Positions 379 to 58,924 of a stretch of DNA of 60,183 bases are shown piece after piece. The DNA is from an uncultured Gammaproteobacteria bacterium (GTDB lineage Bacteria > Patescibacteriota > Microgenomatia > Levybacterales > GWA1-39-11): NCBI GenBank assembly GCA_964360265.1, contig CAYHUY010000002.1:1-60183 (forward strand), in the 5' to 3' direction. Under the pieces are notes generated by a model. It worked only from the letters and a program-made list of their open reading frames with translations, searched no databases and was not told where the DNA came from. A program made the position numbers and the translations under genes. Within the stretch, counting starts at the first letter, position 1; every line of letters starts with the position of its first letter.

Positions 379-561
379 TGGATCCCAGAGGACTCGAACC
401 TCTGACATCTTCGGTGTAAACGAAGCGCCTCGCCTGCCTGGACTATGTGGACCCTGCAAGACTTGAACTTGCGACCTTCTCGGTGTAAACGAGACGCTCT
501 AGCCAACTGAGCTAAGGGTCCAGGCATTGTCGGGCAGGTCTACCAACTGAGCTAGGGATCC
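379..561 (-). tRNA. tRNA-Val(TAC) split in the D-arm (5' part 539..561, 3' part 379..428, 110-nt insert 429..538)
   Basis: 561->539 reads GGATCCC-TA-GCTC-AGTTGGTA-GA. 428->379 reads GC-G-CTTCG-TTTACAC-CGAAG-ATGTC-AGAGG-TTCGAGT-CCTCT-GGGATCC-A. Joined, the two parts form a perfect cloverleaf. Whether it is functional or a disrupted gene is unknown. Confidence 0.6.
448..521 (-). tRNA. tRNA-Val(TAC), complete, inside the insert of the split tRNA-Val
   Basis: Reads GGACCCT-TA-GCTC-AGTTGGCTA-GAGC-G-TCTCG-TTTACAC-CGAGA-AGGTC-GCAAG-TTCAAGT-CTTGC-AGGGTCC-A, 74 nt, with all stems paired. Confidence 0.9.
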
Positions 562-763: not shown

Positions 764-1708
764 ATGGAGATTGGATTTATTATTTTAACAATCCTCGGTC
801 TAACATTATTCGAAATAATTACTTCGATAGATAACGCTGTTATTAACGCTGAGGTCCTATCCACCATGGGAAAGCGCGCAAGGAAATTCTTCCTTTTCTG
901 GGGAATACTCTTTGCAGTATTTATTGTCAGAGGACTACTTCCATTGCTTATAGTTTTCCTTTCAAATCCGTCCTTGGGACTTATGGGCGCGCTCACCGCA
1001 ACCTTCTCAGGAGATCCTGCAGTTCATGCGGCAATTGAGGCATCTTCTCCAATTCTTCTTATTGGTGGTGGGGTGTTTTTGGTGTTTTTGTTTTTTAACT
1101 GGCTTTTTCTTGAACCTAAGAATTATGGACTACGTGGTGAACATTTTTTTGAGCGCCAGGGAGCTTGGTTCTTTGCAATTGTTTCAATCTTGCTTTCGGT
1201 AATCGTCTGGTTCGCATTAGGAAAAAGTCCCATGATGGCGTTTGGGGCGGTTATTGGCTCAACGGCATTTTTTATAATTCACGGATTCAGGCAATATGCC
1301 GAACAACAAGAAAAAAGACTACTAATAGGAGGGATGTCCGATGTCTCAAAAGTTGCGTATCTTGAGGTCTTAGATACGACATTCTCAATAGACGGAGTAG
1401 TTGGAGCTTTTGCTTTCACTCTTTCAGTACCGATTATATTAATAGGAAACGGCATTGGAGCTATAGTTCTGCGACAGCTAACGGTTTCAAACATAGAGAG
1501 AATTAAGAAGTATAAATATTTAAAGAATGGGGCAATGTATTCTATCTTGTTCTTAGGAACAATAATGATTCTTGATAGTTTTGGTTATCACATTCCGCCA
1601 TACGTTTCACCCATAATTACGTTTGGAACAGTAGCTTACTTCTTTCAAAAATCACGAATTGAGATGCGCGATATTGAAGCCGCCCTCACGCCAAAAATAT
1701 CTTCTTAG
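764..1708 (+). CDS. multi-pass integral membrane protein, DUF475/TerC-like
   Basis: 314-aa hydrophobic ORF with two S-x-D-N/G motifs (SIDNAVINAEVL and FSIDGVVGAF), as recalled for the DUF475 family. Confidence 0.7.
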   Translation: MEIGFIILTILGLTLFEIITSIDNAVINAEVLSTMGKRARKFFLFWGILFAVFIVRGLLPLLIVFLSNPSLGLMGALTATFSGDPAVHAAIEASSPILLIGGGVFLVFLFFNWLFLEPKNYGLRGEHFFERQGAWFFAIVSILLSVIVWFALGKSPMMAFGAVIGSTAFFIIHGFRQYAEQQEKRLLIGGMSDVSKVAYLEVLDTTFSIDGVVGAFAFTLSVPIILIGNGIGAIVLRQLTVSNIERIKKYKYLKNGAMYSILFLGTIMILDSFGYHIPPYVSPIITFGTVAYFFQKSRIEMRDIEAALTPKISS

Positions 1709-2111
1709 CCGCTGCAAAAGGAAAAATCATATATATCGGCTTACCTGGTAGTCTTTTCCTAAAACCTGCTTTTGCGTTTTCATATGGAAAATTTATCCAC
1801 GGATCCATCCATTTATTGTTCGCACGAACTAAATAGTGCCCTGTGGGATATTTATTCGATCGTTTTATAAAAACAATTGTATTTTGATTGTATATAATTT
1901 TCCTATACCGAATTTTAACATATTTGTACTCGTATATCTGACCTTTAAACTTCAGGGCATTGACTATTTCCTTACAGAGGAAACCCACTTTCTTAGCTTT
2001 GCTTTTACCATCTTCGAACAACTTTAAAGAGTCTTCATAACTGATATCCGTAACAAATGCCACGCACGCAATTCCGCATCCAAACGGATCCTCTTGCCTA
2101 ATTGGCTCCAT
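1686..2111 (-). CDS. stand-alone C39-like (papain-fold) cysteine peptidase domain protein
   Basis: 141 aa. N-terminal FGCGIACVAF (Cys) and later TGHYLV (His) match the C39 peptidase-domain pattern. It converges on the DUF475 gene with a 23-nt overlap. Confidence 0.55.
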   Translation of the reverse strand: MEPIRQEDPFGCGIACVAFVTDISYEDSLKLFEDGKSKAKKVGFLCKEIVNALKFKGQIYEYKYVKIRYRKIIYNQNTIVFIKRSNKYPTGHYLVRANNKWMDPWINFPYENAKAGFRKRLPGKPIYMIFPFAAAKKIFLA

Positions 2112-2164
2112 TTAAACATTGTAGAATTTATATAATTATTAACAAGTAGCGGTATTAAAAGAAC

Positions 2165-2966
2165 GGGTTGGAAGCTAGATAACCCTCCGGGTTGCTTAGG
2201 TTGGAACCTCTTCTTTTTTGTTTATATTTGTAGTAAGATGGTCTAGTGACTACTAACAGAAAAGTGGTATTTAATAATGGGTATATTTACCATATATTCA
2301 ATCGTGGGATTGACAGAAGGAATGTATTTACCGAATTTCGTGAATATTCAAGAGCCTTAGATCTAATAAAGTACTATAGATATCAAGATACTCCAGTAAG
2401 CTATTCGAAGTTGCTACAGCAACCTAGAGAAATGAGGAGTGATGTATTAAGGGAACTTGCGAGAAACGAAACGCACGTTAACATACTCACATACTGTCTT
2501 ATGCCTAATCATTTCCACTTAATGCTTCAGCAGAATGCAGATAAAGGCGTACCAACTTTTGTTTCCAATTTTACCAACGCATACACCAAATATTTTAATA
2601 CCAAACACGAAAGGAATGGTCCAATGTTCGAAGGTGTATTCAAAGCTGTTTTTGTGGAAAGCGACGAACAATTAATTCATTTGTCACGCTATATCCACCT
2701 CAACCCCGTAGTGGCTAGTATCATAAATGAGACCGATATAGAGCGGTATAAATGGTCATCTTTCTCTAATTATGTCTCGCCCGTAGTAAACGATGAAAGG
2801 ATCGTGGATAGCGATTTAGTGCTAAGTGTTGTAGGTTCAAAACAGACATATCGCAAGTTTGTTATGGACCATGTAGATTATGCTAAGAAATTACATATGA
2901 TTAAGCATCTTACTTTTGAATAAAGAAAGGGTTGGAAGCTAGATAACCCTCCGGGTTGCTTAGGTT
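2165..2966 (+). mobile_element. RAYT unit: Y1 transposase gene bracketed by identical REP-like repeats (family A)
   Basis: The 38-nt string GGGTTGGAAGCTAGATAACCCTCCGGGTTGCTTAGGTT occurs at 2165..2202 and 2929..2966 in the same orientation. It contains the hairpin AACCC-TCC-GGGTT. Confidence 0.8.
2246..2923 (+). CDS. REP-associated tyrosine transposase (RAYT, IS200-like Y1 HUH family)
   Basis: HUH motif in YCLMPNHFHLMLQ and catalytic Tyr context SRYIHLNPV. GTG start, 225 aa. Confidence 0.85.
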   Translation: MTTNRKVVFNNGYIYHIFNRGIDRRNVFTEFREYSRALDLIKYYRYQDTPVSYSKLLQQPREMRSDVLRELARNETHVNILTYCLMPNHFHLMLQQNADKGVPTFVSNFTNAYTKYFNTKHERNGPMFEGVFKAVFVESDEQLIHLSRYIHLNPVVASIINETDIERYKWSSFSNYVSPVVNDERIVDSDLVLSVVGSKQTYRKFVMDHVDYAKKLHMIKHLTFE

Positions 2967-3120
2967 CACTTCCACGTAAGATTACATGGAACTCTGACTG
3001 CTGAAAATTCTAGAAATAGGCGAAGAATAAAACGTGTTTATGCTTTCACTGCCTATCAAGGCTTATTTTAAAAAAAATTTTCGGAAAAACCAAGAGGAAA
3101 AATCCAAAAGAACCAAAGAG

Positions 3121-3939
3121 TTACTCAGCAGCTTTAACTGCCAATTTTCGAGGAAGCACTACCATGCGAGCGGCAAAAACACCGTCACCGCCGACGTCAC
3201 GACCCCAGCCATGGACATGGAGCCCGCGGGAAGGGCCACGACGACCAACAACAACAACGCCGCCGGAAACTGTTTCGTCATCTGTACGAACCCAAAAATC
3301 CGGGTAAAGTGGTTTTCCTGTTTTATCCTGATAGTCAATGTCTGCCTGCGAAGCGGTTGAAGCATTCGGCATAGGCATACTTACCAAATCTCTTACCTCT
3401 TCTGGGAGCTTTCCTTTAAGTTTTACTTCATCATCCTGCGTCATTCTTATTTGAGTGTCGGTTGACTTATTGTTACTATTTTTAATTCTTACGTTTTTGG
3501 GATCAATTGCAACTTCCATCTCAGTAGGAACTATAGAGCGCATATTTTCAGAAGAATTAACAAAGGCAAAACGGTTTCTGGTTGCCTCGTCTGTTGCGAG
3601 TTCACCCATTGATACGGGTTTAATCGTAACAACGTGTGTAAAGCCTTCTTTTGCTAAGGACTCACGAGTTTTATTGTAGGCTTCTTCGCTTACACTTGGA
3701 ATTTCAAGGGCTACGTGTTGTAATGGGCGAGAAGGTGTAATATCGGCAGATTGAGGTTGTACAGATGCAGAAACGGCAAAAGTTTCCGGTACACCAAGTT
3801 GTCTTGCAATTTTTTCTCGGGCGCCAAAGGACTTAGCATCAGCACTAAGTGTGTCTGCAATATCAGAATAGCCCTTTTGTCTGAATTGTCTAGCTAATTG
3901 ATCTGCCTGTTGGCGTAATTTACCAAGTTCTGCTGACAT
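3121..3939 (-). CDS. hypothetical protein
   Basis: 272-aa ORF with no family I recognise. The C-terminal third (3121..~3330) is visibly GC-rich and produces spurious ORFs on both strands. Confidence 0.6.
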   Translation of the reverse strand: MSAELGKLRQQADQLARQFRQKGYSDIADTLSADAKSFGAREKIARQLGVPETFAVSASVQPQSADITPSRPLQHVALEIPSVSEEAYNKTRESLAKEGFTHVVTIKPVSMGELATDEATRNRFAFVNSSENMRSIVPTEMEVAIDPKNVRIKNSNNKSTDTQIRMTQDDEVKLKGKLPEEVRDLVSMPMPNASTASQADIDYQDKTGKPLYPDFWVRTDDETVSGGVVVVGRRGPSRGLHVHGWGRDVGGDGVFAARMVVLPRKLAVKAAE

Positions 3940-8051: not shown

Positions 8052-8119
8052 ACCCACCTAGGAGCGCTCCGAGCAATTTACATTCAAGCTCTCATTTGTT
8101 AAAATTCTAGAGTTCTAGC

Positions 8120-8193
8120 GGATTCGTAGCTCAGTTGGTTAGAGCGTTACATTGACATTGTAAAGGCCACAGGTTCGAATCCTGTCGAGTCCA
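8120..8193 (+). tRNA. tRNA-Val(GAC)
   Basis: Reads GGATTCG-TA-GCTC-AGTTGGTTA-GAGC-G-TTACA-TTGACAT-TGTAA-AGGCC-ACAGG-TTCGAAT-CCTGT-CGAGTCC-A. Confidence 0.9.
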
Positions 8194-8210
8194 CAGTCCA
8201 GGCAGGCGGG

Positions 8211-8263
8211 GCGTTGCATTGACATTGCAAAGGTCACAGGTTCGAATCCTGTCGGATCCACCA
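8211..8263 (+). other. orphan tRNA-Val(GAC) 3' portion (position 24 to CCA), preceded by a conserved 17-nt spacer
   Basis: Reads GC-G-TTGCA-TTGACAT-TGCAA-AGGTC-ACAGG-TTCGAAT-CCTGT-CGGATCC-A-CCA. No matching 5' half lies directly upstream other than that of tRNA 8120..8193. Confidence 0.7.
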
Positions 8264-8274
8264 GCGCAACGAAA

Positions 8275-8676
8275 ATGAATAACTATCGAGGAGTTATCAT
8301 CGAAGAATCTCTTGAGAATAAAGAAGTTCTCAAAAAACTTAAGATCATCTCAACAAAAATTGAGAAGGTTACGGAAAAACATATGACTCCATGGCTTACG
8401 CAATGGACATTGCACACCGTACAAATTCCAGAAAATAAAGCAAAAGAAATTGCGCAAGAGATTAGCAAGTCATTAGACCAAAATCATATGGGTTCGTGGT
8501 ACACGGATTTTAAGAATAAAATCCACCATTATATTATTTTCCGCGATAAAATTTTCTATATAGACCGGACAAGTAAAGAACAGTATAACGAAGCGAAACG
8601 CTATGGCATTTCACTTGGCATACCTGAATATCAACTAATATCTCCAGATACTCAAAATTATTCGGACGAAGCATGA
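8275..8676 (+). CDS. hypothetical protein
   Basis: 133-aa ORF whose stop overlaps the next start (ATGA), so it is probably co-transcribed with the glycosylase gene. Confidence 0.55.
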   Translation: MNNYRGVIIEESLENKEVLKKLKIISTKIEKVTEKHMTPWLTQWTLHTVQIPENKAKEIAQEISKSLDQNHMGSWYTDFKNKIHHYIIFRDKIFYIDRTSKEQYNEAKRYGISLGIPEYQLISPDTQNYSDEA

Positions 8677-9641: not shown

Positions 9642-9692
9642 ATTCAAAAAAGAATTTCTCAGATGTATTGAACCTGCAGGGACTCCATTGCT

Positions 9693-9744
9693 CCTAGGTG
9701 TAGCTACAATTCCACCTCCCAGGTGGATTAGGTAGTCCACACTA
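9693..9744. repeat. REP-like element, family D
   Basis: CCTAGGTG-tagctacaatt-CCACCTCCCAGGTGG-attaggtagt-CCACACTAG. Its last arm contains the lysA-like stop codon. Confidence 0.65.
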
Positions 9745-12370: not shown

Positions 12371-12430
12371 TTCATCGTTCATTCTCTTTAATTTTGCTAT
12401 ACTGGATTTGTGAATCGAGTAGACAGAAAT

Positions 12431-12486
12431 CCCGAGGTGTCAATAGAAATCCACCTCCGAGAGGGAATAGCTTGGACACCTAGAGA
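12431..12486. repeat. REP-like element, family C (degenerate 3' half)
   Basis: CCCGAGGTG-tcaatagaaat-CCACCTCCGAGAGGG-aatagcttgga-CACCTAGAG. Confidence 0.6.
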
Positions 12487-23528: not shown

Positions 23529-24840
23529 AATAGTTGTTGTAATTGACAGCGGCGGTCGTGGTGCTGCGCTCGTCCATAAATACTCTCAAAGTCCCCATGT
23601 CAAAAATATAATCGCAATCCCAGGAAATGATTTAATGCAATTAAACTCCAGTACGCCTGTTCGTACCTTTCCGGAATTAAAAACCACAGACATTGGCGAG
23701 ATTATTCAAGTATGTAAAAAGTATAAGGTCAATTTGGTGGATGTTGCTCAGGACAATGCAGTTGAGGTAGGCTTAACAGATAAACTCATCGAACAAGGTT
23801 TTAACGTAATCGGACCAACAAAAGCTGCAGGACAAATTGAATGGGACAAGGCATGGGCAAGGGATTTCATGAAAAGACACAAACTCCCGATCCCTTTTTA
23901 TGAGACCTTCAATTCGCATAGCAAGGCAATTAAGTTTGTCAACAAAAATCCTAAAAAGCGCTTTTTTGTAAAAGCGGCGGGATTAGCCGATGGAAAGGGA
24001 GCAATTCCTGTAGAAAACGCTAGGGAAGCGATCGGCGCAATCAAACAGATGTCAATGTTTGGAAAAGCTGGTGAAACGTTTGTAATAGAAGAGTGGCTTG
24101 ATGGCGAGGAGTTCTCAATGTTCGCAATATCAGATGGTAAAACATTTCAAATCGTTGGCTCTGCTCAAGACTATAAAAGATTGTATGATGGCGACGTGGG
24201 CCCAAATACCGGCGGTATCGGATGCAGCGCACCCGCGTTGATTGTTGATAAAAATATATACAAACAGGCTGAATTAATACTTAAAACTGCACTCTCTGGC
24301 TTGACTCAAGAAGGTCGTATCTATAAAGGAATCCTATATTTAGGAGCAATTGTTGTTCGCGGCAAAGTTTTTGTTATTGAATTCAATGCAAGGTGGGGTG
24401 ATCCGGAAGCAGAAGTGCTTATTCCAAGCATTAAAAATGATCTTTACGAACTCTCAATGTCAACATGCAATGGAACATTAAACAAAATGAAGATTCGAAC
24501 CGATAAAAAGGCTCGCGTTGTTATTACGGGTTCTCTAAAAGCTAATGCTGCAAAGACCGAGAGAGAGCTTTTTGGCATAAGGGATATATTAAGATTACCT
24601 AAAGTAATTATTTACGGCACCAGGGTAACTCAAGATGGTAGCAAATATTTTGTTTCTTCAGGAAGATTATTTCATATAGTCGGTGAAGGGGAAGACATTA
24701 TCCAAGCACGACAACGGGCATATGAGGCTATGGAACGAATTTCTATCGAAGGAGATAATCTCCATTATCGGACAGACATTGGGTGGAGAGATGTTGAGCG
24801 AATAAGAAAAGGTTGGAAGCTAGACAACCCGGAGGGTTGA
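23518..24840 (+). CDS. purD: phosphoribosylamine-glycine ligase
   Basis: KIVVVIDSGGRGAALVHKYSQSPHV at the N-terminus, an ATP-grasp core, and EFNARWGDPE. The last 9 codons and the stop lie inside a REP-A copy. Confidence 0.85.
   Translation: MADKIVVVIDSGGRGAALVHKYSQSPHVKNIIAIPGNDLMQLNSSTPVRTFPELKTTDIGEIIQVCKKYKVNLVDVAQDNAVEVGLTDKLIEQGFNVIGPTKAAGQIEWDKAWARDFMKRHKLPIPFYETFNSHSKAIKFVNKNPKKRFFVKAAGLADGKGAIPVENAREAIGAIKQMSMFGKAGETFVIEEWLDGEEFSMFAISDGKTFQIVGSAQDYKRLYDGDVGPNTGGIGCSAPALIVDKNIYKQAELILKTALSGLTQEGRIYKGILYLGAIVVRGKVFVIEFNARWGDPEAEVLIPSIKNDLYELSMSTCNGTLNKMKIRTDKKARVVITGSLKANAAKTERELFGIRDILRLPKVIIYGTRVTQDGSKYFVSSGRLFHIVGEGEDIIQARQRAYEAMERISIEGDNLHYRTDIGWRDVERIRKGWKLDNPEG
24811..24840. repeat. 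REP-like element, family A variant (hairpin flipped)
   Basis: GGTTGGAAGCTAGACAACCCGGAGGGTTGA. The stem AACCC/GGGTT is kept, but the loop is GGA instead of TCC. Confidence 0.7.
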
Positions 24841-24844
24841 TTTT

Positions 24845-24900
24845 CCCGAGGTGTCAAGGGGAATCCACCTCCGAGGTGTAATAGCTTTACCACCTCGGGA
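24845..24900. repeat. REP-like element, family C (best copy)
   Basis: CCCGAGGTG-tcaaggggaat-CCACCTCCGAGGTG-taatagcttta-CCACCTCGGGA. Confidence 0.75.
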
Positions 24901-25014: not shown

Positions 25015-25698
25015 ATGGCCGACCCGCATGAACAACTTAGAAGAACTACTTCGATATCTCTTGAGGCCGCGAAAAGAGCGGAACAATCAAAGCGGATAGA
25101 TCTCCTTGACAAACAAAATCCTTTATTTCAAGCACTTTTAACAAGAAGCCCTGCTTTTGCGGAAAGTTTACCTAGTATCTCATTAGATTGGCAGATAATG
25201 TTAAGAAGTTATGGTGTTTCTTTCTTAAAAGATTATCCTTATAACACGCCTTTGTACGGCCTGATTGGGTGGGACGCTTGCCGTCTGATTGTTGATTTAG
25301 ATATGGACCATAATGCCGTAGCCCTAAGATTCCATGCTTATGACAAAACAGGCGACATGACCGTAGAGGAAGGGATGCTTGTGGCTGACGGAAAAGTGAC
25401 AATTCTAAACGAAGGAAGATTCGATATACCATGGAATCCTTATAGAAATATGGTGATGGCGGCAATAGATAAGGCAACCGGGAGAACAGATGATCCCGAA
25501 ACTCTAAGATGCTTATTTGATTACTTCTCCGAAGACATTGGGGCTCTTCCAGGTGTTCGGGATAGCTGCGGAAGTTCTTTTGGTCAATTCGCAACTCATG
25601 CTTACTTTGGAATTCGATCGGGCGAAACGACAATGAACCCTCCCCTTGCTGTGGGCTGGCCCATGACCGAAGGCCACTATCTTCTCTCACATCCCTAG
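25015..25698 (+). CDS. hypothetical protein (orphan, bounded by REP elements)
   Basis: 227-aa ORF with a protein-like composition. The antisense ORF 25172..25741 looks like noise. The stop TAG lies within the CCTAGG arm of REP-D. Confidence 0.55.
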   Translation: MADPHEQLRRTTSISLEAAKRAEQSKRIDLLDKQNPLFQALLTRSPAFAESLPSISLDWQIMLRSYGVSFLKDYPYNTPLYGLIGWDACRLIVDLDMDHNAVALRFHAYDKTGDMTVEEGMLVADGKVTILNEGRFDIPWNPYRNMVMAAIDKATGRTDDPETLRCLFDYFSEDIGALPGVRDSCGSSFGQFATHAYFGIRSGETTMNPPLAVGWPMTEGHYLLSHP

Positions 25699-25746
25699 GT
25701 GGAGCTACAAATCCACCCCCGAGGTGGGATAGATTCGCCACCTAGG
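25694..25746. repeat. REP-like element, family D
   Basis: CCTAGGTGG-agctacaaat-CCACCCCCGAGGTGG-gatagattcg-CCACCTAGG. Confidence 0.75.
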
Positions 25747-25758
25747 AAAATGTAAGCT

Positions 25759-25814
25759 CCCGAGGTGTCAATAGCAGTCCACCTCCGAGGTGTATTAGGT
25801 TGGACACCTCGGGA
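25759..25814. repeat. REP-like element, family C
   Basis: CCCGAGGTG-tcaatagcagt-CCACCTCCGAGGTG-tattaggttgga-CACCTCGGGA. Confidence 0.75.
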
Positions 25815-35968: not shown

Positions 35969-36539
35969 GGCCTATTGAGTCAATTGAAACCTTAATTTGA
36001 TTTCCGTAGCCGCTTATGTACATTTCGCAGGGCAGTCCCTGACTATTTCCTGAGACGAGATTAAAAATAATAGTGGAGCAATTATTAACGCCGGGAATAA
36101 CGTTTGATGCTGCCACACCTTCCGGAAAAACTTTAGATTCTAAAATTACCTCCCTTTCCGGTGATCCACATATAGCCGTCATTTCATAAAACGCGGGGGC
36201 ACAAGACGGGACGACGTTAAAGCAGAAATTTAATTTATAAGAAGAAAGTTCGTCCGTCGCGACGCATTCGGGTGGTTTAACAAATGAAGCAGCATTGAAT
36301 CGCGCAAGGTCAACTGCTTGTTTTACATTTGCTGCTGTCTGTACAACTACCTGTCTCTTACTATAGGAGGCAAAAGAGATATAGCCAATCGTCGAAAGTA
36401 CAGAAATCAAAGAAAAAGCAACGAGTAATTCGATGAGAGAGAAGCCCCCCCGCCTCCGGCGGGAATTTCCAATTTCAAATACTGCCAATTTCCAATAATT
36501 TGAAATTAGAAATTTGAAATTAGAAATTTGAAATTTCAT
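35955..36539 (-). CDS. prepilin-type protein with a 31-aa repeat-encoded leader
   Basis: MKFQISNFKFLISNYWKLAVFEIGNSRRRRGG|FSLIELLVAF. The ATG at 36539 lies 2 nt after the upstream stop; the track start at 36581 is unlikely. Confidence 0.7.
   Translation of the reverse strand: MKFQISNFKFLISNYWKLAVFEIGNSRRRRGGFSLIELLVAFSLISVLSTIGYISFASYSKRQVVVQTAANVKQAVDLARFNAASFVKPPECVATDELSSYKLNFCFNVVPSCAPAFYEMTAICGSPEREVILESKVFPEGVAASNVIPGVNNCSTIIFNLVSGNSQGLPCEMYISGYGNQIKVSIDSIGHVSY
36463..36539 (-). repeat. 77-nt AT-rich element, copy 1 (encodes a pilin leader)
   Basis: It differs from 37498..37574 at only 3 of 77 positions and contains (GAAATTA/GAAATTT) heptamer runs. Confidence 0.85.
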
Positions 36540-36541
36540 TG

Positions 36542-36973
36542 TTAGGGGTTTGTGAGTGTAAATGAAACACCAGAGGTACATGCTGCCTGGGCAGTACTAT
36601 CACGGTCGGCATCGTTTTCGTTTTCAAGACACGCATAAATTGTATAAGTGAGTCCATCGGCATCGGCAGAATTGTATGGATAGTTAGTTTTCTCGATTGG
36701 ATCGCAGGGGATTTTCTGCATATAGGTAACGCTGCTATAAATGAGGGGTAGTCCACAAACGGGAAAAGCGTCAGGATAAGTTCCGTTATCTGACCGGTGC
36801 AATTCAAGCGCTGTTTGGATTTGTCTTATGTCCGATTTTCTTTGCGCATCTCGGCCTCGCTGTCTAACTCCAACAAAATTTGTCATAAGAAGCGCTGAAA
36901 GAACAGAAATAATACTAATTACAACTAGAAGCTCTATGAGCGTAAAACCTTCTTTATTATTCAAAGCTGGCAT
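36542..36973 (-). CDS. GspG/PilE-like pseudopilin
   Basis: MPALNNKEG|FTLIELLVVISIISVLSALL, then GRDAQRKSDIRQIQTALE. The ATG at 36973 is preferred over the TTG at 37009. Confidence 0.75.
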   Translation of the reverse strand: MPALNNKEGFTLIELLVVISIISVLSALLMTNFVGVRQRGRDAQRKSDIRQIQTALELHRSDNGTYPDAFPVCGLPLIYSSVTYMQKIPCDPIEKTNYPYNSADADGLTYTIYACLENENDADRDSTAQAACTSGVSFTLTNP

Positions 36974-37010: not shown

Positions 37011-37574
37011 TTACGGGCTTACATTAGGACTTGATACTCCATAATTGCAAGTTAATCCGCACGCCGTAGCTCCCGGGGCATTTAGGCAGGAAGTGCCATC
37101 AGAATTACAGGCTTGCGGATCTTTTCCCCCGCGTTCAAGTGATGCGTAAAGCCAGTAGCTTTGTTGATTACCATCGGTTATGTAAACGTAATTCAGGGAT
37201 GATTTAGGATCCTCTGGTAATACATCCATATAGGGCGCCCACGAGTCTCCCCAGTTAAGTTCGGAGAGATTATATACTATCTTATTATTGAGACTTTCCG
37301 GATATTTACCAAAGTCCTGATAATAAGCTTCCAAGGCTTTCTGTATTTGTGAAAGATTATTTTTTCTTTGTGCGTCTGCTGTTTTCTTAAATTGCTCAAA
37401 CGGATTAATTGCGGATATTAGAAAGGTGGAAAAAATAGCAAGTATTCCAATCCCAACAATTAGCTCAATCAAAGTAAACCCCGCCCGCCTCTGGCGGGAA
37501 TTTACAATTTCAAATACTACCAATTTCCAATGATTTGAAATTAGAAATTTGAAATTAGAAATTTGAAATTTCAT
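37011..37574 (-). CDS. prepilin-type protein with a 31-aa repeat-encoded leader
   Basis: MKFQISNFKFLISNHWKLVVFEIVNSRQRRAG|FTLIELIVGIG, then DAQRKNNLSQIQKALE. The ATG overlaps the pilD TAA (TAATG). Confidence 0.75.
   Translation of the reverse strand: MKFQISNFKFLISNHWKLVVFEIVNSRQRRAGFTLIELIVGIGILAIFSTFLISAINPFEQFKKTADAQRKNNLSQIQKALEAYYQDFGKYPESLNNKIVYNLSELNWGDSWAPYMDVLPEDPKSSLNYVYITDGNQQSYWLYASLERGGKDPQACNSDGTSCLNAPGATACGLTCNYGVSSPNVSP
37498..37574 (-). repeat. 77-nt AT-rich element, copy 2 (encodes a pilin leader)
   Basis: GAATTTACAATTTCAAATACTACCAATTTCCAATGATTTGAAATTAGAAATTTGAAATTAGAAATTTGAAATTTCAT. Confidence 0.85.
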
Positions 37575-38347
37575 TAGGCTAACTTCTCAAGAACAATTTT
37601 TATTATTTGATCTCCCAAAAAGTACGAAATAACCGAAGACAAAATTAGGAATGGGCCAAAAGGGATCGTGCCGCCTTTTAATTTTTTTTTGCCCCATAAA
37701 ACAAGTATGATAGCAACTGCTGCTCCTGTCAAGAATGCCAAATACGCTGCCACAACGCTCATCGGGAATCCCAAAAAAAACCCTAAGGCAAAGCATAGCT
37801 TAACATCACCAAAACCCATTCCGCGACCGGAGGTTGCTAAAAAAATTAATAAAAAGATAAGTAAAAATCCAACGCCTGCAAGAAAATGATTTATTATGGA
37901 ACCAGGAGAATAAAGCGCTAAATAAACAAAGACTATACCCGAGGCGGTTAAGATAAGTTCATCCGGGATTATGCCAAAATCAAAGTCTGTAAAAAAAATA
38001 CCTATAAAAATGGGCAGGAGAAGTAAAAGATAAACCAAATTTATAAAATCTACGCTTCCCCTTATGTAGAGCAAAAAAACTGCAGAATATAGTAAGCCAT
38101 TTATAACCTCGACGAGAAAGATTCTTGTTGGAATTTTACTCTTACACTTTTTACATTTTCCCCTCAAAACCAAATATGAAACAACAGGAATTAACTCAAG
38201 CGGTGTTAGCTTTTTCTTACACTTTGCACAATGCGACCTATTAAAAAAAATGCTTTGACGGGCAGGGAGCCTGTCTATTAATACGTTTATAAAACTTCCA
38301 GCCGATGCCCCTAGAATAAAAACAAATAAAAACGCTAAGACTTCCAT
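37574..38347 (-). CDS. pilD: prepilin peptidase (A24 family)
   Basis: Polytopic membrane protein with a Cys-rich loop (CAKCKKKL...CKKCKSKI) and GFGDVKL. Confidence 0.85.
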   Translation of the reverse strand: MEVLAFLFVFILGASAGSFINVLIDRLPARQSIFFNRSHCAKCKKKLTPLELIPVVSYLVLRGKCKKCKSKIPTRIFLVEVINGLLYSAVFLLYIRGSVDFINLVYLLLLLPIFIGIFFTDFDFGIIPDELILTASGIVFVYLALYSPGSIINHFLAGVGFLLIFLLIFLATSGRGMGFGDVKLCFALGFFLGFPMSVVAAYLAFLTGAAVAIILVLWGKKKLKGGTIPFGPFLILSSVISYFLGDQIIKIVLEKLA

Positions 38348-52020: not shown

Positions 52021-52171
52021 ACACCTCGAAGGTGTTTGTCGAAGGCGCTTGTCGTTGACAGACACCTTCGACTGTTCCACGGGGTTAGTGCCATCGATAG
52101 CGTCGACGGTGTTCTTCTCCGAAGAGGAGGTGCGAAGCTAGACAACCCGGAGGGTTGATTAGGTTGGAACC
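52021..52171. repeat. mosaic of hairpin repeats ending in a REP-A copy
   Basis: ACACCT-cga-AGGTGT at 52021..52035. GTCGAAGG...CCTTCGAC spans 52038..52072. GCGAAGCTAGACAACCCGGAGGGTTGATTAGGTTGGAACC lies at 52132..52171. Confidence 0.65.
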
Positions 52172-52217
52172 TATTCTTCTTTGGAATAACTTGTTCAATT
52201 AGATATAATTGAAACCT

Positions 52218-55183: not shown

Positions 55184-55187
55184 GTTG

Positions 55188-55235
55188 CCGTTAGGTGCCG
55201 CTACAATTCCACCCGTCGGGTGGCTTAGGGGGGGT
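55188..55235. repeat. REP-like element, family D (degenerate)
   Basis: CCGTTAGGTG-ccgctacaatt-CCACCCGTCGGGTGG-cttaggggggg. It shares GCTACAATTCCACC with the copy at 9693..9744. Confidence 0.55.
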
Positions 55236-57829: not shown

Positions 57830-57851
57830 TATAATATTCTATCGAATATTA

Positions 57852-57938
57852 ATTTTAAATACTACCAATTTCAAATCATTACCAATTTCCGATGATTTTA
57901 ATTGGATATTTGATATTTGAAATTAGAAATTTGAAATT
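57852..57938. repeat. non-coding relative of the 77-nt AT-rich element
   Basis: AAATACTACCAATTTCAAATCATTACCAATTTCCGATGATTTTA, then GGATATT-TGATATT-TGAAATT-AGAAATT-TGAAATT. It lies between the xer stop and the ABC ATPase start. Confidence 0.7.
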
Positions 57939-57940
57939 GA

Positions 57941-58924
57941 CTAGGGGCGGTTGCCCTGGTGGAATTTTTTGTGGATTTCTCGCAACTGAGGATTCGTAAC
58001 GTGCGTGTAGATTTGAGTAGTTGATATGTTCTTGTGACCTAACATTTCCTGAACTGAGCGAAGATCGGCGCCATTCGACAATAAATCGGTGGCGAAGCTA
58101 TGACGAAGCGTGTGAGGTGAGGCCTTAATGGGAATTCGTGCGGCCGCAACATACTTATCAACAATTCGTTCAATTGATCGGGGGGAAAGCCTCATTTTTT
58201 CGCCATCGTTTTCGAAGGATTTTTCTTTTGAGTACCTTATAAATGCCGGCTTCCATGGATCCTCCCGTTTCTCAAAATACTGTGAAAGCCAATTCGCCGC
58301 CGCATCGGACATAAAGACTACTCGTGCCCGGCCTCCTTTTCCTATTATGCCGAACTCGCGGGTGTCAAAATTAATTTGGTCGCGATTGAGCCTGGTAAGC
58401 TCTGAAACGCGAAGCCCGGTTGAAAAAAGCATTTCAAGTATGCTTCGGTCCCGCAGGGCTTTTTCGTCTTTTTTCGAAATGTCAACTGAATTAAACAAAT
58501 CCTGAAGGTGATTTTTATCAAGAAACTTCAAAGATTTACTTTCTGATTTTGGTAAATCAATTTTGTCAGGAGATAAAGTTTCATGATCTGATCGAATTAG
58601 AAATTTTAAAAAGGAGCGAAGTGCAATAATATAATAGGACTGAGTAACGCGTTTAAGAGTCATGCCGCGCGCGTCTACAAAATTGGAAAGGTAAAGGCGG
58701 TATTTTCGAACCTTGTCGATATTAATATCCTTTATCCCTAGCCCCGGATAATTTTTGGCAAACCACTGATCAAATCTTTTAAGATATAAACGGTAATTGC
58801 GAATAGTTAACTTTGAAGAATTTTTTTCAATTTCTAAATATTCGAGAAATTGCTGAACATATCTTTGTATTTCTGAATTATTGTTTTCCATGTAAATTAG
58901 TACCGCCAATATATTAAACGACAT
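57941..58924 (-). CDS. tyrosine recombinase XerC/XerD family
   Basis: The C-terminal catalytic region reads HTLRHSFATDLLSNGADLRSVQEMLGHKNISTTQIYTHV. An alternative start is at 58891 (MENNNSE). Confidence 0.85.
   Translation of the reverse strand: MSFNILAVLIYMENNNSEIQRYVQQFLEYLEIEKNSSKLTIRNYRLYLKRFDQWFAKNYPGLGIKDINIDKVRKYRLYLSNFVDARGMTLKRVTQSYYIIALRSFLKFLIRSDHETLSPDKIDLPKSESKSLKFLDKNHLQDLFNSVDISKKDEKALRDRSILEMLFSTGLRVSELTRLNRDQINFDTREFGIIGKGGRARVVFMSDAAANWLSQYFEKREDPWKPAFIRYSKEKSFENDGEKMRLSPRSIERIVDKYVAAARIPIKASPHTLRHSFATDLLSNGADLRSVQEMLGHKNISTTQIYTHVTNPQLREIHKKFHQGNRP

What the first reader, a model, noticed from the sequence alone, without database searches (positions are those of the whole stretch)
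8120..8263. Complete tRNA-Val(GAC) followed by the same conserved spacer and a second, compensatorily mutated 3' portion ending in CCA
After the intact tRNA (8120..8193) comes CAGTCCAGGCAGGCGGG. Then follows a 50-nt tRNA 3' portion starting at position 24 (8211..8260), plus an encoded CCA.

The 13-mer GTCCAGGCAGGCG is identical to the sequence that precedes the 3' portion of the split tRNA-Val(TAC) at 429..447. That is a different isoacceptor, on the other strand, 7.6 kb away.

The two 3' portions at this locus differ by a compensatory pair in the anticodon stem: TTACA/TGTAA versus TTGCA/TGCAA. They also differ in the acceptor strand (CGAGTCC versus CGGATCC). Both acceptor strands pair with the single 5' strand GGATTCG, each with exactly one G-U pair.

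One 5' half could therefore serve two alternative 3' halves. Only the distal one carries CCA. Base-pair-preserving change argues that the extra piece has been under RNA-level selection and is not a dead remnant.
Basis: partly seen in the sequence, partly recalled or inferred. Interest (0 to 1): 0.75.

Follow-up and report, generated by a model that had tools for sequence, protein, structure and literature searches.

The report
Displaced half of an interrupted tRNA-Val gene
The extra tRNA piece is the original 3' part of a valine tRNA gene, pushed aside by a small insertion that carries its own complete valine tRNA; an insertion with the same conserved ends sits inside other valine tRNA genes of related uncultured bacteria.

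Summary
A complete tRNA-Val(GAC) (8120-8193) is followed by CA+GTCCAGGCAGGCGGG and a second tRNA 3' portion ending in CCA (8211-8263). The 13-mer recurs only at the tRNA-Val(TAC) locus.

The functional reading is not supported. The organism is a bacterium, probably Candidatus Levybacteria. Relatives carry one intact tRNA-Val(GAC) with the distal piece's anticodon arm, CGGATCC acceptor strand and CCA. So the distal piece is the displaced native 3' part, and the "compensatory" differences reflect descent from two functional genes.

The TAC locus shows the full structure. Compared with relatives, the native tRNA-Val(TAC) is split between GGTAGA and GCG (D loop) by a clean 110-nt insert: CCTGCCCGAC + leader + complete tRNA-Val(TAC) + CATA + GTCCAGGCAGGCGAG.

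The same ends flank a nested tRNA-Val in two other low-GC metagenome contigs (Val-CAC, Val-TAC). They were found nowhere else in 185,579 species genomes or in viral, plasmid and phage collections.

The GAC locus keeps the identical right junction but lacks the left half, probably through a crossover between the duplicated 5' halves.

How the cassette spreads is unknown. I cannot exclude that the interrupted genes still yield two-piece tRNAs.

The parts
8077..8105 (+). Promoter-like site (TTTACA-17-TG-TAAAAT) upstream of the proximal tRNA; native upstream region
   Evidence: The TTTG[G/T]TAAAAT motif is conserved upstream of tRNA-Val(GAC) in relatives (alignment A3). L158 ends in the same sequence.
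8120..8143 (+). 5' half of tRNA-Val(GAC), positions 1-21 (GGATTCGTAGCTCAGTTGGTTAGA); native type
   Evidence: It pairs with either 3' strand with one G-U. The same 5' strand is seen in L014.
8144..8193 (+). 3' portion of the proximal, complete tRNA-Val(GAC). Its anticodon stem (TTACA/TGTAA), variable loop (GGCC) and acceptor strand (CGAGTCC) are unique, and it has no CCA. I take it as the incoming (cassette) part.
   Evidence: Its ..GTCC+A+C(A) 3' end matches all inner tRNAs of the nested loci (A1).
8194..8210 (+). Right end of the cassette: CA + GTCCAGGCAGGCGGG. It is D-arm-like when read together with the following GC.
   Evidence: It is identical in the window TAC locus, L054 and L057.
8211..8263 (+). 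Displaced native 3' portion of tRNA-Val(GAC), positions 22-73 plus the encoded CCA
   Evidence: The same anticodon arm, or the same CGGATCC+ACCA end, is found in intact genes of relatives L017, L144 and L160, and in L014 and L016.
539..561 (-). TAC locus: native 5' fragment of tRNA-Val(TAC) (GGATCCCTAGCTCAGTTGGTAGA)
429..538 (-). TAC locus: 110-nt insert. It consists of the left end CCTGCCCGAC (538..529), leader AATGCCT, complete inner tRNA-Val(TAC) (521..448), CATA, and the right end GTCCAGGCAGGCGAG (443..429).
   Evidence: Clean 110-nt gap against L151 and L157 (A4). Inner tRNA scores 71.3 bits. The left end occurs only here in the window.
379..428 (-). TAC locus: native 3' portion of tRNA-Val(TAC). 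It pairs perfectly with the 5' fragment.

Best explanation
The distal piece (8211-8263) is the displaced native 3' part of this bacterium's tRNA-Val(GAC) gene. The gene was interrupted in its D loop, between positions 21 and 22 (..TTAGA|GCG..). The interrupting DNA is a small cassette that brings a complete tRNA-Val with the same anticodon and ends in ..GTCCA-C(A)-GTCCAGGCAGGCG(A/G)G.

The complete form of this cassette sits in the tRNA-Val(TAC) gene 7.6 kb away: left end CCTGCCCGAC, short leader, tRNA, short trailer, right end, 110 nt in all. It also sits in tRNA-Val genes of other Patescibacteria.

At the GAC locus the left part is gone (native 5' fragment, left end and leader). The most likely cause is a crossover or slipped-strand deletion between the two directly repeated 5' halves. 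That would leave the native promoter and native-type 5' strand fused to the cassette tRNA.

The proximal tRNA is the working gene, matured by RNase P, RNase Z and CCA addition. The distal piece is co-transcribed as its 3' trailer and as the leader of the downstream gene. Most likely it has no function of its own.

Shown: the anatomy, the native identity of the distal piece, the clean indel at the TAC locus, and the recurrence of the ends. Inferred: the deletion step, how the cassette spreads, and the lack of function.
For: 1. Native identity of the distal piece. Relatives have one intact tRNA-Val(GAC).
- L144 has it directly upstream of the orthologous 131-aa gene, same orientation, with a canonical D arm and CGGATCCACCA.
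- L017 and L160 have the anticodon arm TTGCA TTGACAT TGCA(A/G) and the strand (C/T)GGATCC.
- In alignment A3 the proximal copy carries the unique differences, not the distal one.

2. The TAC locus is an insertion. Relatives with the same synteny (TerC 91%, 85% and 81% identical) have one uninterrupted tRNA-Val(TAC). L151 and L157 align to the window's outer halves and flanks with a single clean 110-nt gap.

3. Recurrence. The same two ends flank a nested tRNA-Val in L054 (Val-CAC) and L057 (Val-TAC, in an orthologous Leu-Val-Phe-Gly-Gln cluster).

4. Specificity. The other 19-mer and 18-mer hits lie in unrelated contigs, mostly GC-rich. None of the 10 species-genome hits has a tRNA nearby, and none of the other metagenome and viral hits shows a tRNA arrangement at the motif. 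The ends are absent from all relatives that lack the nested structure.

5. Same right junction (GGCAGGCG-R-G|GCG) at all four loci (A1).

6. All inner 3' strands end in GTCC. The proximal 5' strand GGATTCG is of native type, giving T4-G69. This fits a chimeric 5' end.

7. The outer tRNA of L054 is decayed, with a broken acceptor and T stem. This shows the displaced halves are dispensable.
Against: - The 10-nt and 18-nt cassette ends are invariant across four loci, apart from one A/G. The adjacent leader and trailer differ (A1 and A2). This points to a constraint I cannot name.
- In the window TAC locus and in L057 both outer halves are intact. Their acceptor stems differ by two compensatory pairs. 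That is equally what a still-functional split tRNA would show.
- No integrase, transposase or endonuclease is associated with all loci.
- There is no target-site duplication.
- The GAC locus needs a second event.
- The apparent 'uninterrupted' strain contigs L014 and L016 are 100% identical to the window from 8231 onward and unrelated before 8230. They may be assembly chimeras joined through a shared 33-mer.
Confidence: 0.7

Rival explanations
1. Intervening-sequence reading. The nested tRNA acts like the intervening sequences of bacterial rRNA. RNase P and RNase Z cut out the inner tRNA. The outer 5' and 3' pieces stay together through the acceptor stem, the D stem and the CCUGCC-C-GAC / GUC-CA-GGCAGG helix, and serve as a two-piece (or religated) tRNA-Val. 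At the GAC locus the distal piece would be a derivative that has lost its own 5' piece.
For: - The TAC-locus transcript folds as outer acceptor, then a 6+3 bp clamp helix, then the inner cloverleaf (-75.5 kcal/mol, z = -3.9).
- The outer halves of the window TAC locus and of L057 give perfect cloverleaves when joined.
- These two differ by compensatory pairs in the acceptor stem, which spans the insert (helix 1).
- The clamp-helix sequences are invariant (helix 3).
- The cassette's right end gives the 3' piece a D-arm-like hairpin.
Against: - The clamp helix shows no covariation; it never varies.
- Compensatory differences in the outer stems are also expected if each insertion hit a different intact gene.
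- The L054 outer tRNA is broken, and the GAC locus has no outer 5' piece.
- Close relatives manage with an uninterrupted gene.
- To my knowledge, no two-piece tRNA is known to work in bacterial translation.
Confidence: 0.13
2. One 5' half (8120-8143) is used with either of two 3' halves, giving two tRNA-Val(GAC) variants. The distal piece is kept by RNA-level selection.
For: - GGATTCG pairs with both CGAGTCC and CGGATCC, with one G-U each.
- The virtual join 8143|8211 is a valid cloverleaf.
- The minimum-energy fold of 8120-8263 pairs the 5' strand with the distal 3' strand. That arrangement scores -36.3 kcal/mol against -34.1 for the two-domain fold.
Against: - The host is bacterial. There is no BHB motif, intron or ribozyme.
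- The whole-locus fold is not unusual (z = -1.79). The distal piece alone is not either (z = -0.29).
- Ancestry explains the compensatory pair.
- The distal piece with the motif is absent from relatives.
- Transcription order favours the proximal cloverleaf.
Confidence: 0.05
3. Scar of a classical integrase-borne genomic island. An island integrated into tRNA-Val(GAC) and regenerated the gene with its own 3' part. Almost all of it was later deleted, leaving the regenerated tRNA, 17 nt of island arm and the displaced fragment.
For: The pattern of a regenerated target plus a displaced 3' fragment as a direct repeat is the hallmark of tDNA islands (PMC4383910 abstract; D9).
Against: - The junction lies in the D loop, not at the anticodon-loop, T-loop or 3'-end sublocations I recall integrases using (my own knowledge, not checked here).
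- The TAC locus, L054 and L057 show the same compact 110-nt unit with a complete tRNA and both displaced halves. Independent deletions would not reproduce that.
- No integrase was found among the neighbouring genes tested.
- No match in viral, phage or plasmid collections.
Confidence: 0.08
4. Local tandem duplication by replication slippage, with the shared 13-mer a coincidence.
For: A 51-nt repeat with a 67-nt period.
Against: - An exact 14+4-nt match to the TAC locus, with 0.37 hits expected even when 2 mismatches are allowed.
- The same ends occur in L054 and L057.
Confidence: 0.02

Closest known systems
Genomic islands integrated into tRNA/tmRNA genes (regenerated target plus displaced fragment; Islander database, PMC4383910)
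   Same: - A tRNA gene is split by incoming DNA.
- The incoming DNA restores a working tRNA.
- A displaced native fragment remains as a direct repeat.
   Different: - The incoming unit is only 110 nt (67 nt at the GAC locus).
- It carries a complete tRNA rather than just the 3' part.
- It sits in the D loop at position 21/22.
- It displaces both a 5' and a 3' fragment.
- It has conserved, mutually complementary ends, and no integrase was found.
Archaeal disrupted tRNA genes (intron-containing, split and tri-split tRNAs; the Caldiarchaeum tRNA-Thr disruption model, PMC3293823)
   Same: - tRNA halves are separated by foreign DNA.
- A tRNA 5' fragment lies next to a replacement gene.
- Relatives (and possibly strains) carry the uninterrupted gene.
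   Different: - The host is bacterial.
- There is no bulge-helix-bulge motif at the junctions.
- The insert is itself a tRNA of the same anticodon.
- No recombinase gene lies between the fragments.
Intervening sequences of bacterial rRNA genes (fragmented rRNA without religation)
   Same: - An insert in a structural RNA gene is bounded by complementary ends that form a helix.
- Excision by ordinary processing nucleases would leave functional pieces.
- From my own knowledge (not checked here): the candidate phyla radiation is known for frequent rRNA insertions.
   Different: - The host gene is a tRNA.
- The insert is a tRNA, which would be cut out by RNase P and RNase Z rather than RNase III.
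- Function of the remaining pieces is untested.
Miniature inverted-repeat elements and IS200/IS605-type elements
   Same: - Small, non-coding and recurrent.
- The ends are conserved and imperfectly inverted.
- A Y1 (IS200-like) transposase gene lies 1.7 kb from the TAC locus.
   Different: - No target-site duplication.
- No subterminal hairpins.
- The cargo is a tRNA matched to the target's anticodon.
- The genome's own REP-like repeats have unrelated sequences.
- The neighbouring ORFs tested in L054 and L057 gave no transposase match.

Membership tests
tDNA-integrated genomic island (Islander type) | A displaced fragment repeats the 3' part of the regenerated tRNA | tested here: met
   51-nt direct repeat, 90% identical (D9)
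tDNA-integrated genomic island (Islander type) | An island carrying a tyrosine integrase gene lies between the regenerated tRNA and the displaced fragment | tested here: not met
   Only 17 nt separate them. The flanking genes are DUF5660 and a 133-aa protein, and the neighbours tested include no integrase.
tDNA-integrated genomic island (Islander type) | Crossover in the anticodon loop, T loop or 3' end of the tRNA | tested here: not met
   The junction is at D-loop position 21/22 in all four loci
tDNA-integrated genomic island (Islander type) | An uninterrupted target exists in relatives | tested here: met
   GAC: L017, L144, L160. TAC: L150-L152, L154, L157.
Archaeal-type intron-containing or split tRNA | Bulge-helix-bulge motif at the exon-intron junctions | tested here: not met
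   By inspection, the 4 nt 5' of CCUGCC (UAGA) cannot pair with the first 4 nt of the 3' exon. There are no 3-nt bulges spaced by 4 bp.
Archaeal-type intron-containing or split tRNA | Host has a tRNA splicing endonuclease (archaeon or eukaryote) | tested here: not met
   Bacterial gene content (trigger factor, DUF5660). Homologues are named Levybacteria or Patescibacteria. An endonuclease gene outside the window cannot be excluded.
Group I intron in a bacterial tRNA | Catalytic core recognisable, and insertion in the anticodon loop | tested here: not met
   Rfam finds only tRNA and antisense-tRNA artefacts. The insert is 110 nt and lies in the D loop.
Transposable element (MITE or IS200/IS605 derivative) | Terminal inverted repeats or subterminal hairpins | tested here: inconclusive
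   The ends CCTGCC-C-GAC and GTC-CA-GGCAGG are imperfectly inverted. There are no local hairpins.
Transposable element (MITE or IS200/IS605 derivative) | Target-site duplication (MITE), or a fixed tetra- or pentanucleotide target (IS200/605) | tested here: not met
   The native TAGA|GCG is not duplicated
Transposable element (MITE or IS200/IS605 derivative) | Empty and filled sites in related genomes, and copies at several loci | tested here: met
   Clean 110-nt indel. Four loci, three anticodons and at least three organisms.
rRNA-like intervening sequence giving a fragmented functional RNA | The insert is bounded by complementary ends that form a processing helix | tested here: met
   A 6+3 bp helix is present in all three complete loci, though invariant
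rRNA-like intervening sequence giving a fragmented functional RNA | The insert is excised from the RNA and the remaining pieces function | not testable with these tools
   Needs RNA-end mapping and aminoacylation assays

The most novel reading that the evidence does not exclude
A previously undescribed, very small transferable 'replacement tRNA' cassette in Patescibacteria. It is a complete tRNA-Val gene bounded by conserved, mutually complementary ends (CCTGCCCGAC ... GTCCAGGCAGGCGRG). It enters position 21/22 of resident tRNA-Val genes of any isoacceptor, substitutes for the gene it breaks, and leaves its halves behind. At the RNA level it may behave as an intervening sequence cut out by RNase P and RNase Z, so that the interrupted gene still yields a two-piece tRNA. 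The GAC locus of this finding would be a half-resolved copy of it.
Probability: 0.35. Interest if true: 0.8.

Novelty: new variant of a known kind. Interest (0 to 1): 0.55.

Why it matters
For the finding itself, the result is sobering. The "second 3' half" is a displaced gene fragment, and its compensatory changes are inherited rather than selected in place.

The wider pattern is worth attention. A 110-nt unit carrying a whole tRNA sits inside a tRNA of the same anticodon. Its ends are identical in at least three organisms and three isoacceptors, and relatives have clean empty sites.

If it is mobile, it is an unusually minimal element that makes itself harmless, and then indispensable, by replacing the essential gene it destroys. 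If the interrupted genes still work, bacteria would have a protein-splicing-free route to split tRNAs, which bears on ideas about how tRNA genes become disrupted.

Practically, such loci make tRNA finders report overlapping double genes. They also break metagenome assemblies at exactly this point.

Tried and rejected
- **Genome-wide repeat?** No. The 13-mer has two copies in the window. The 10 hits to the 19-mer in 185,579 species genomes are all in unrelated organisms (mostly Actinomycetota and other MAGs) with no tRNA nearby.
- **Phage or plasmid origin.** Three viral-contig scans found nothing with a tRNA context. BLAST against phage and plasmid collections matched only generic tRNA.
- **Known RNA families.** Rfam in permissive mode found only tRNA, antisense-tRNA artefacts (Plastid-ycf2) and sub-threshold tmRNA-like hits to the tRNA-like part.
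- **BHB splicing motif.** Rejected by inspection.
- **A separate 5' half for the distal piece.** GGATCCGTAGCTCAG-like sequences occur only at the two known loci. The left end AGACCTGCCCGAC occurs only at the TAC locus.
- **Associated enzymes.** Neighbours in the window, L054 and L057 include no integrase or endonuclease. The Y1 transposase at 2246-2923 belongs to a REP-like repeat system with unrelated sequences.
- **Thermodynamics.** Not decisive.
- **Strain-level 'empty site' contigs L014 and L016.** They first looked like direct proof of a recent event. They are 100% identical to the window from 8231 and unrelated upstream, so they may be assembly chimeras. I do not rely on them.
- **Literature.** Searches for nested or interrupted bacterial tRNA genes found no description.

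Full report
**1.

The sequence is exactly as described.
- ARAGORN calls tRNA-Val(GAC) at 8120-8194, plus a second, overlapping "tRNA-Val(GAC)" at 8187-8263. It does the same at the tRNA-Val(TAC) locus, at 447-521 and 378-453 on the minus strand.
- Rfam scores 8120-8193 at 74.8 bits.
- Rfam also scores 8195-8252 at 33.1 bits, as tRNA model positions 9-63. In its alignment the "spacer" is read as a D arm, GUCC-AGGCAGGCG-GGGC, with four standard pairs.
- The two 3' portions are a 51-nt direct repeat, 90% identical, 67 nt apart (D9).
- GTCCAGGCAGGCG occurs only at 431-443(-) and 8196-8208(+), even when two mismatches are allowed. The expectation is 0.37.
- The shared stretch is really AGTCCAGGCAGGCG-R-GGCG.
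- The proximal-motif-distal junction appears in several independent assemblies of the same organism: L011, L012, L013 and L015.

**2. The organism**

The window encodes trigger factor, a DUF5660 protein, TerC/DUF475 and a class II aminoacyl-tRNA synthetase. GC content is about 0.40. Close homologues come from Candidatus Levybacteria and other Patescibacteria. It is a bacterium, so archaeal-type tRNA splicing is not expected.

**3. The TAC locus gives the full picture**

Read on the minus strand, the locus runs:
- 561..539: GGATCCCTAGCTCAGTTGGTAGA, tRNA positions 1-21.
- 538..529: CCTGCCCGAC.
- 528..522: AATGCCT.
- 521..448: a complete tRNA-Val(TAC), 71.3 bits.
- 447..444: CATA.
- 443..429: GTCCAGGCAGGCGAG.
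- 428..379: GCG, anticodon arm, T arm, GGGATCC and A.

The outer strands GGATCCC and GGGATCC pair perfectly. The transcript folds as outer acceptor, then a CCUGCC/GGCAGG clamp, then the inner cloverleaf (-75.5 kcal/mol, z = -3.9).

**4. Relatives show this is an insertion into the native gene**

Contigs with the same gene order and TerC 91%, 85% and 81% identical have a single 74-nt tRNA-Val(TAC) in the same tRNA cluster. These are L150-152, L154 and L157.

The L151 gene has the same D loop, anticodon arm (CTTCG TTTACAC CGAAG), variable loop and downstream flank as the window's outer halves. In alignment A4 the window differs from L151 and L157 by one clean 110-nt gap, between ..GGTAGA and GCG... 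There is no target-site duplication.

**5. The same unit recurs elsewhere**

An exact scan of 185,579 species genomes for the 19-mer gave 10 hits. All were in unrelated genomes, with no tRNA nearby, which matches the roughly nine hits I estimated by hand from the collection's size.

A metagenome scan gave 72 loci and a viral scan gave 11. After filtering, only two were real: L054 (GC 0.39) and L057 (GC 0.40). Both have the full architecture:
- a 5' fragment ending in ..TAGA,
- CCTGCCCGAC,
- a 6-8 nt leader,
- a complete tRNA-Val,
- CATA or CCA,
- GTCCAGGCAGGCGGG,
- GCG plus an anticodon arm and the rest.

L054 is Val(CAC) in both inner and outer copies. L057 is Val(TAC) and lies in a Leu-Val-Phe-Gly-Gln cluster orthologous to the window's.

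The ends are absent from every relative that lacks the nested structure. They are also absent from viral, phage and plasmid collections.

In each locus the inner and outer copies have identical 7-nt anticodon loops, although their stems may differ.

**6. Back to the GAC locus**

The right junction is identical to the other three..GTCCA-CA-GTCCAGGCAGGCGGG|GCG...

The distal piece is of native type.
- L144, whose downstream protein is 76% identical, has a tRNA directly upstream of the orthologous gene in the same orientation. It has a canonical D arm, the anticodon arm TTGCA TTGACAT TGCAG and CGGATCCACCA.
- L017 and L160 have single intact genes with the same anticodon arm and (C/T)GGATCC, on the opposite strand.
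- In alignment A3 the unique substitutions (A29/T41, C47, A68/G69) are in the proximal copy.

The upstream region and its TTTGTTAAAAT promoter-like motif are also native.

What is missing is the native 5' fragment, the left end and the leader. Neither a second 5' half nor the left end exists near 8120.

The simplest route from the complete form is a crossover or slippage between the two directly repeated 5' halves. In the TAC locus these are 19 of 23 identical (my count) and 40 nt apart. That would fuse the native promoter and 5' strand to the cassette tRNA.

This is inference, but it explains one detail. All inner tRNAs have 3' strands ending in GTCC, which would pair with GGAC. The proximal 5' strand is instead the native-type GGATTCG.

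**7.

The virtual join 8143|8211 is a perfect cloverleaf, because it reconstitutes the native gene. The compensatory pair is inherited from two functional lineages.

Nothing in the sequence offers a way to join the halves in a bacterium. I see no BHB motif by inspection, and Rfam finds no intron or ribozyme. Thermodynamics is not informative:
- whole locus, z = -1.79;
- distal piece alone, z = -0.29;
- two-domain fold -34.1 kcal/mol against the outer-acceptor fold -36.3 kcal/mol.

The outer tRNA of L054 has a broken acceptor and T stem, so displaced halves can decay.

**8. What remains unexplained**

The two ends (10 nt and 18 nt) are invariant in four loci, apart from one A/G. The leader and trailer between them and the tRNA differ. 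Some constraint therefore acts on them, either recognition by an unknown protein or the 6+3 bp RNA helix. That helix shows no covariation because it never varies.

In the window TAC locus and in L057 both outer halves are intact. Their acceptor stems differ by two compensatory pairs across the insert. This fits independent insertions into different intact genes, and it fits continued function as a two-piece tRNA equally well.

No recombinase is common to the loci. The Y1 transposase at 2246-2923 goes with a different, REP-like repeat family.

The contigs L014 and L016 show an intact gene in place of the distal piece. However, they are 100% identical to the window from 8231 onward and unrelated before 8230, so they may be chimeras formed through a shared 33-mer. 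I do not rest the argument on them.

**9. Comparison with known systems**

The closest known pattern is integration of genomic islands into tRNA genes, which leaves a regenerated target and a displaced fragment (PMC4383910). A related case is the Caldiarchaeum model, in which tRNA genes are disrupted by mobile DNA (PMC3293823).

This case differs in five ways:
- the insertion site, D loop 21/22;
- its size, 110 nt;
- it carries a whole tRNA;
- it leaves both halves of the native gene behind;
- it lacks an integrase.

At the RNA level the nearest analogue is the intervening sequence of bacterial rRNA. I found no description of a tRNA nested in a bacterial tRNA gene, although the library is incomplete.

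**10. Verdict**

The functional interpretation is not supported. The distal piece is best explained as the displaced native 3' part of an interrupted tRNA-Val(GAC) gene (confidence 0.7).

The recurrent tRNA-in-tRNA cassette behind it is a new variant of tRNA-gene disruption and deserves a systematic scan and RNA-level tests.

Noticed in passing
window 379-561 (- strand): The native tRNA-Val(TAC) is split in its D loop by a 110-nt insert that carries a complete second tRNA-Val(TAC). Close relatives have the uninterrupted gene. This is the complete form of what is seen at 8120-8263.
   Followed up: yes
window 2158-2966: An IS200-like Y1 transposase gene (2246-2923; Pfam Y1_Tnp, E = 1.9e-9) is flanked by 45-nt direct repeats (2158-2202 and 2922-2966) that contain a GGGTT..AACCC..GGGTT palindrome. 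Related copies lie at 24804-24842 and 52122-52183. It looks like a REP/RAYT-type arrangement. This gene and its two neighbours (a 141-aa and a 272-aa ORF, roughly 1686-3939) have no counterpart in the relative L151.
   Followed up: partly
window 9688-9732, 12427-12486, 24841-24900, 25689-25814, 55185-55229: A family of REP-like palindromic repeats (..TCCCGAGGTG..CCACCTCCGAGGTG..). A copy also lies upstream of the tRNA in contig L014 (1-51).
   Followed up: no
window 8275-8676 (+): A 133-aa protein starts 12 nt after the CCA. It has no Pfam or PDB match. It has 1,681 homologues, and the 119 non-identical ones among the best 120 listed are 71-82% identical. This is an unusually conserved unknown of Patescibacteria.
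   Followed up: partly
L017 1925-2003, L160 1367-1440: In two relatives the single tRNA-Val(GAC) downstream of the DUF5660 gene lies on the opposite strand, with other genes inserted next to it (DUF433/DUF5615 toxin-antitoxin, HD domain). This neighbourhood is a rearrangement hot spot.
   Followed up: partly
L150 2176-2541 (- strand): In a close relative, a 121-aa GIY-YIG ORF sits inside the orthologous tRNA cluster, between tRNA-Gln and tRNA-Gly. It is not called in L151, whose gene coordinates are otherwise the same, and there is no room for it in the window, where tRNA-Gln and tRNA-Gly are about 130 nt apart.
   Followed up: no
L057 4755-4829: The inner tRNA-Val(TAC) of L057 has an atypical T loop (ATCGTCA, with A54/T58 swapped) and a short D loop. 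It still scores 60.7 bits. Its acceptor stem and anticodon arm are identical to those of the outer tRNA, which suggests gene conversion between inner and outer copies.
   Followed up: partly
window 36419-36549, 37454-37584, 57851-57952: AT-rich repeats built from AATTTGAAATTAGA units, including a 122-nt pair that is 88% identical and 1,035 nt apart.
   Followed up: no
window 447-521, 283-356, 8120-8194 (opposite strands): Sub-threshold Rfam 'Plastid-ycf2 5'UTR' hits fall exactly on the antisense strand of tRNA genes. They are artefacts of that model resembling an antisense tRNA.
   Followed up: no
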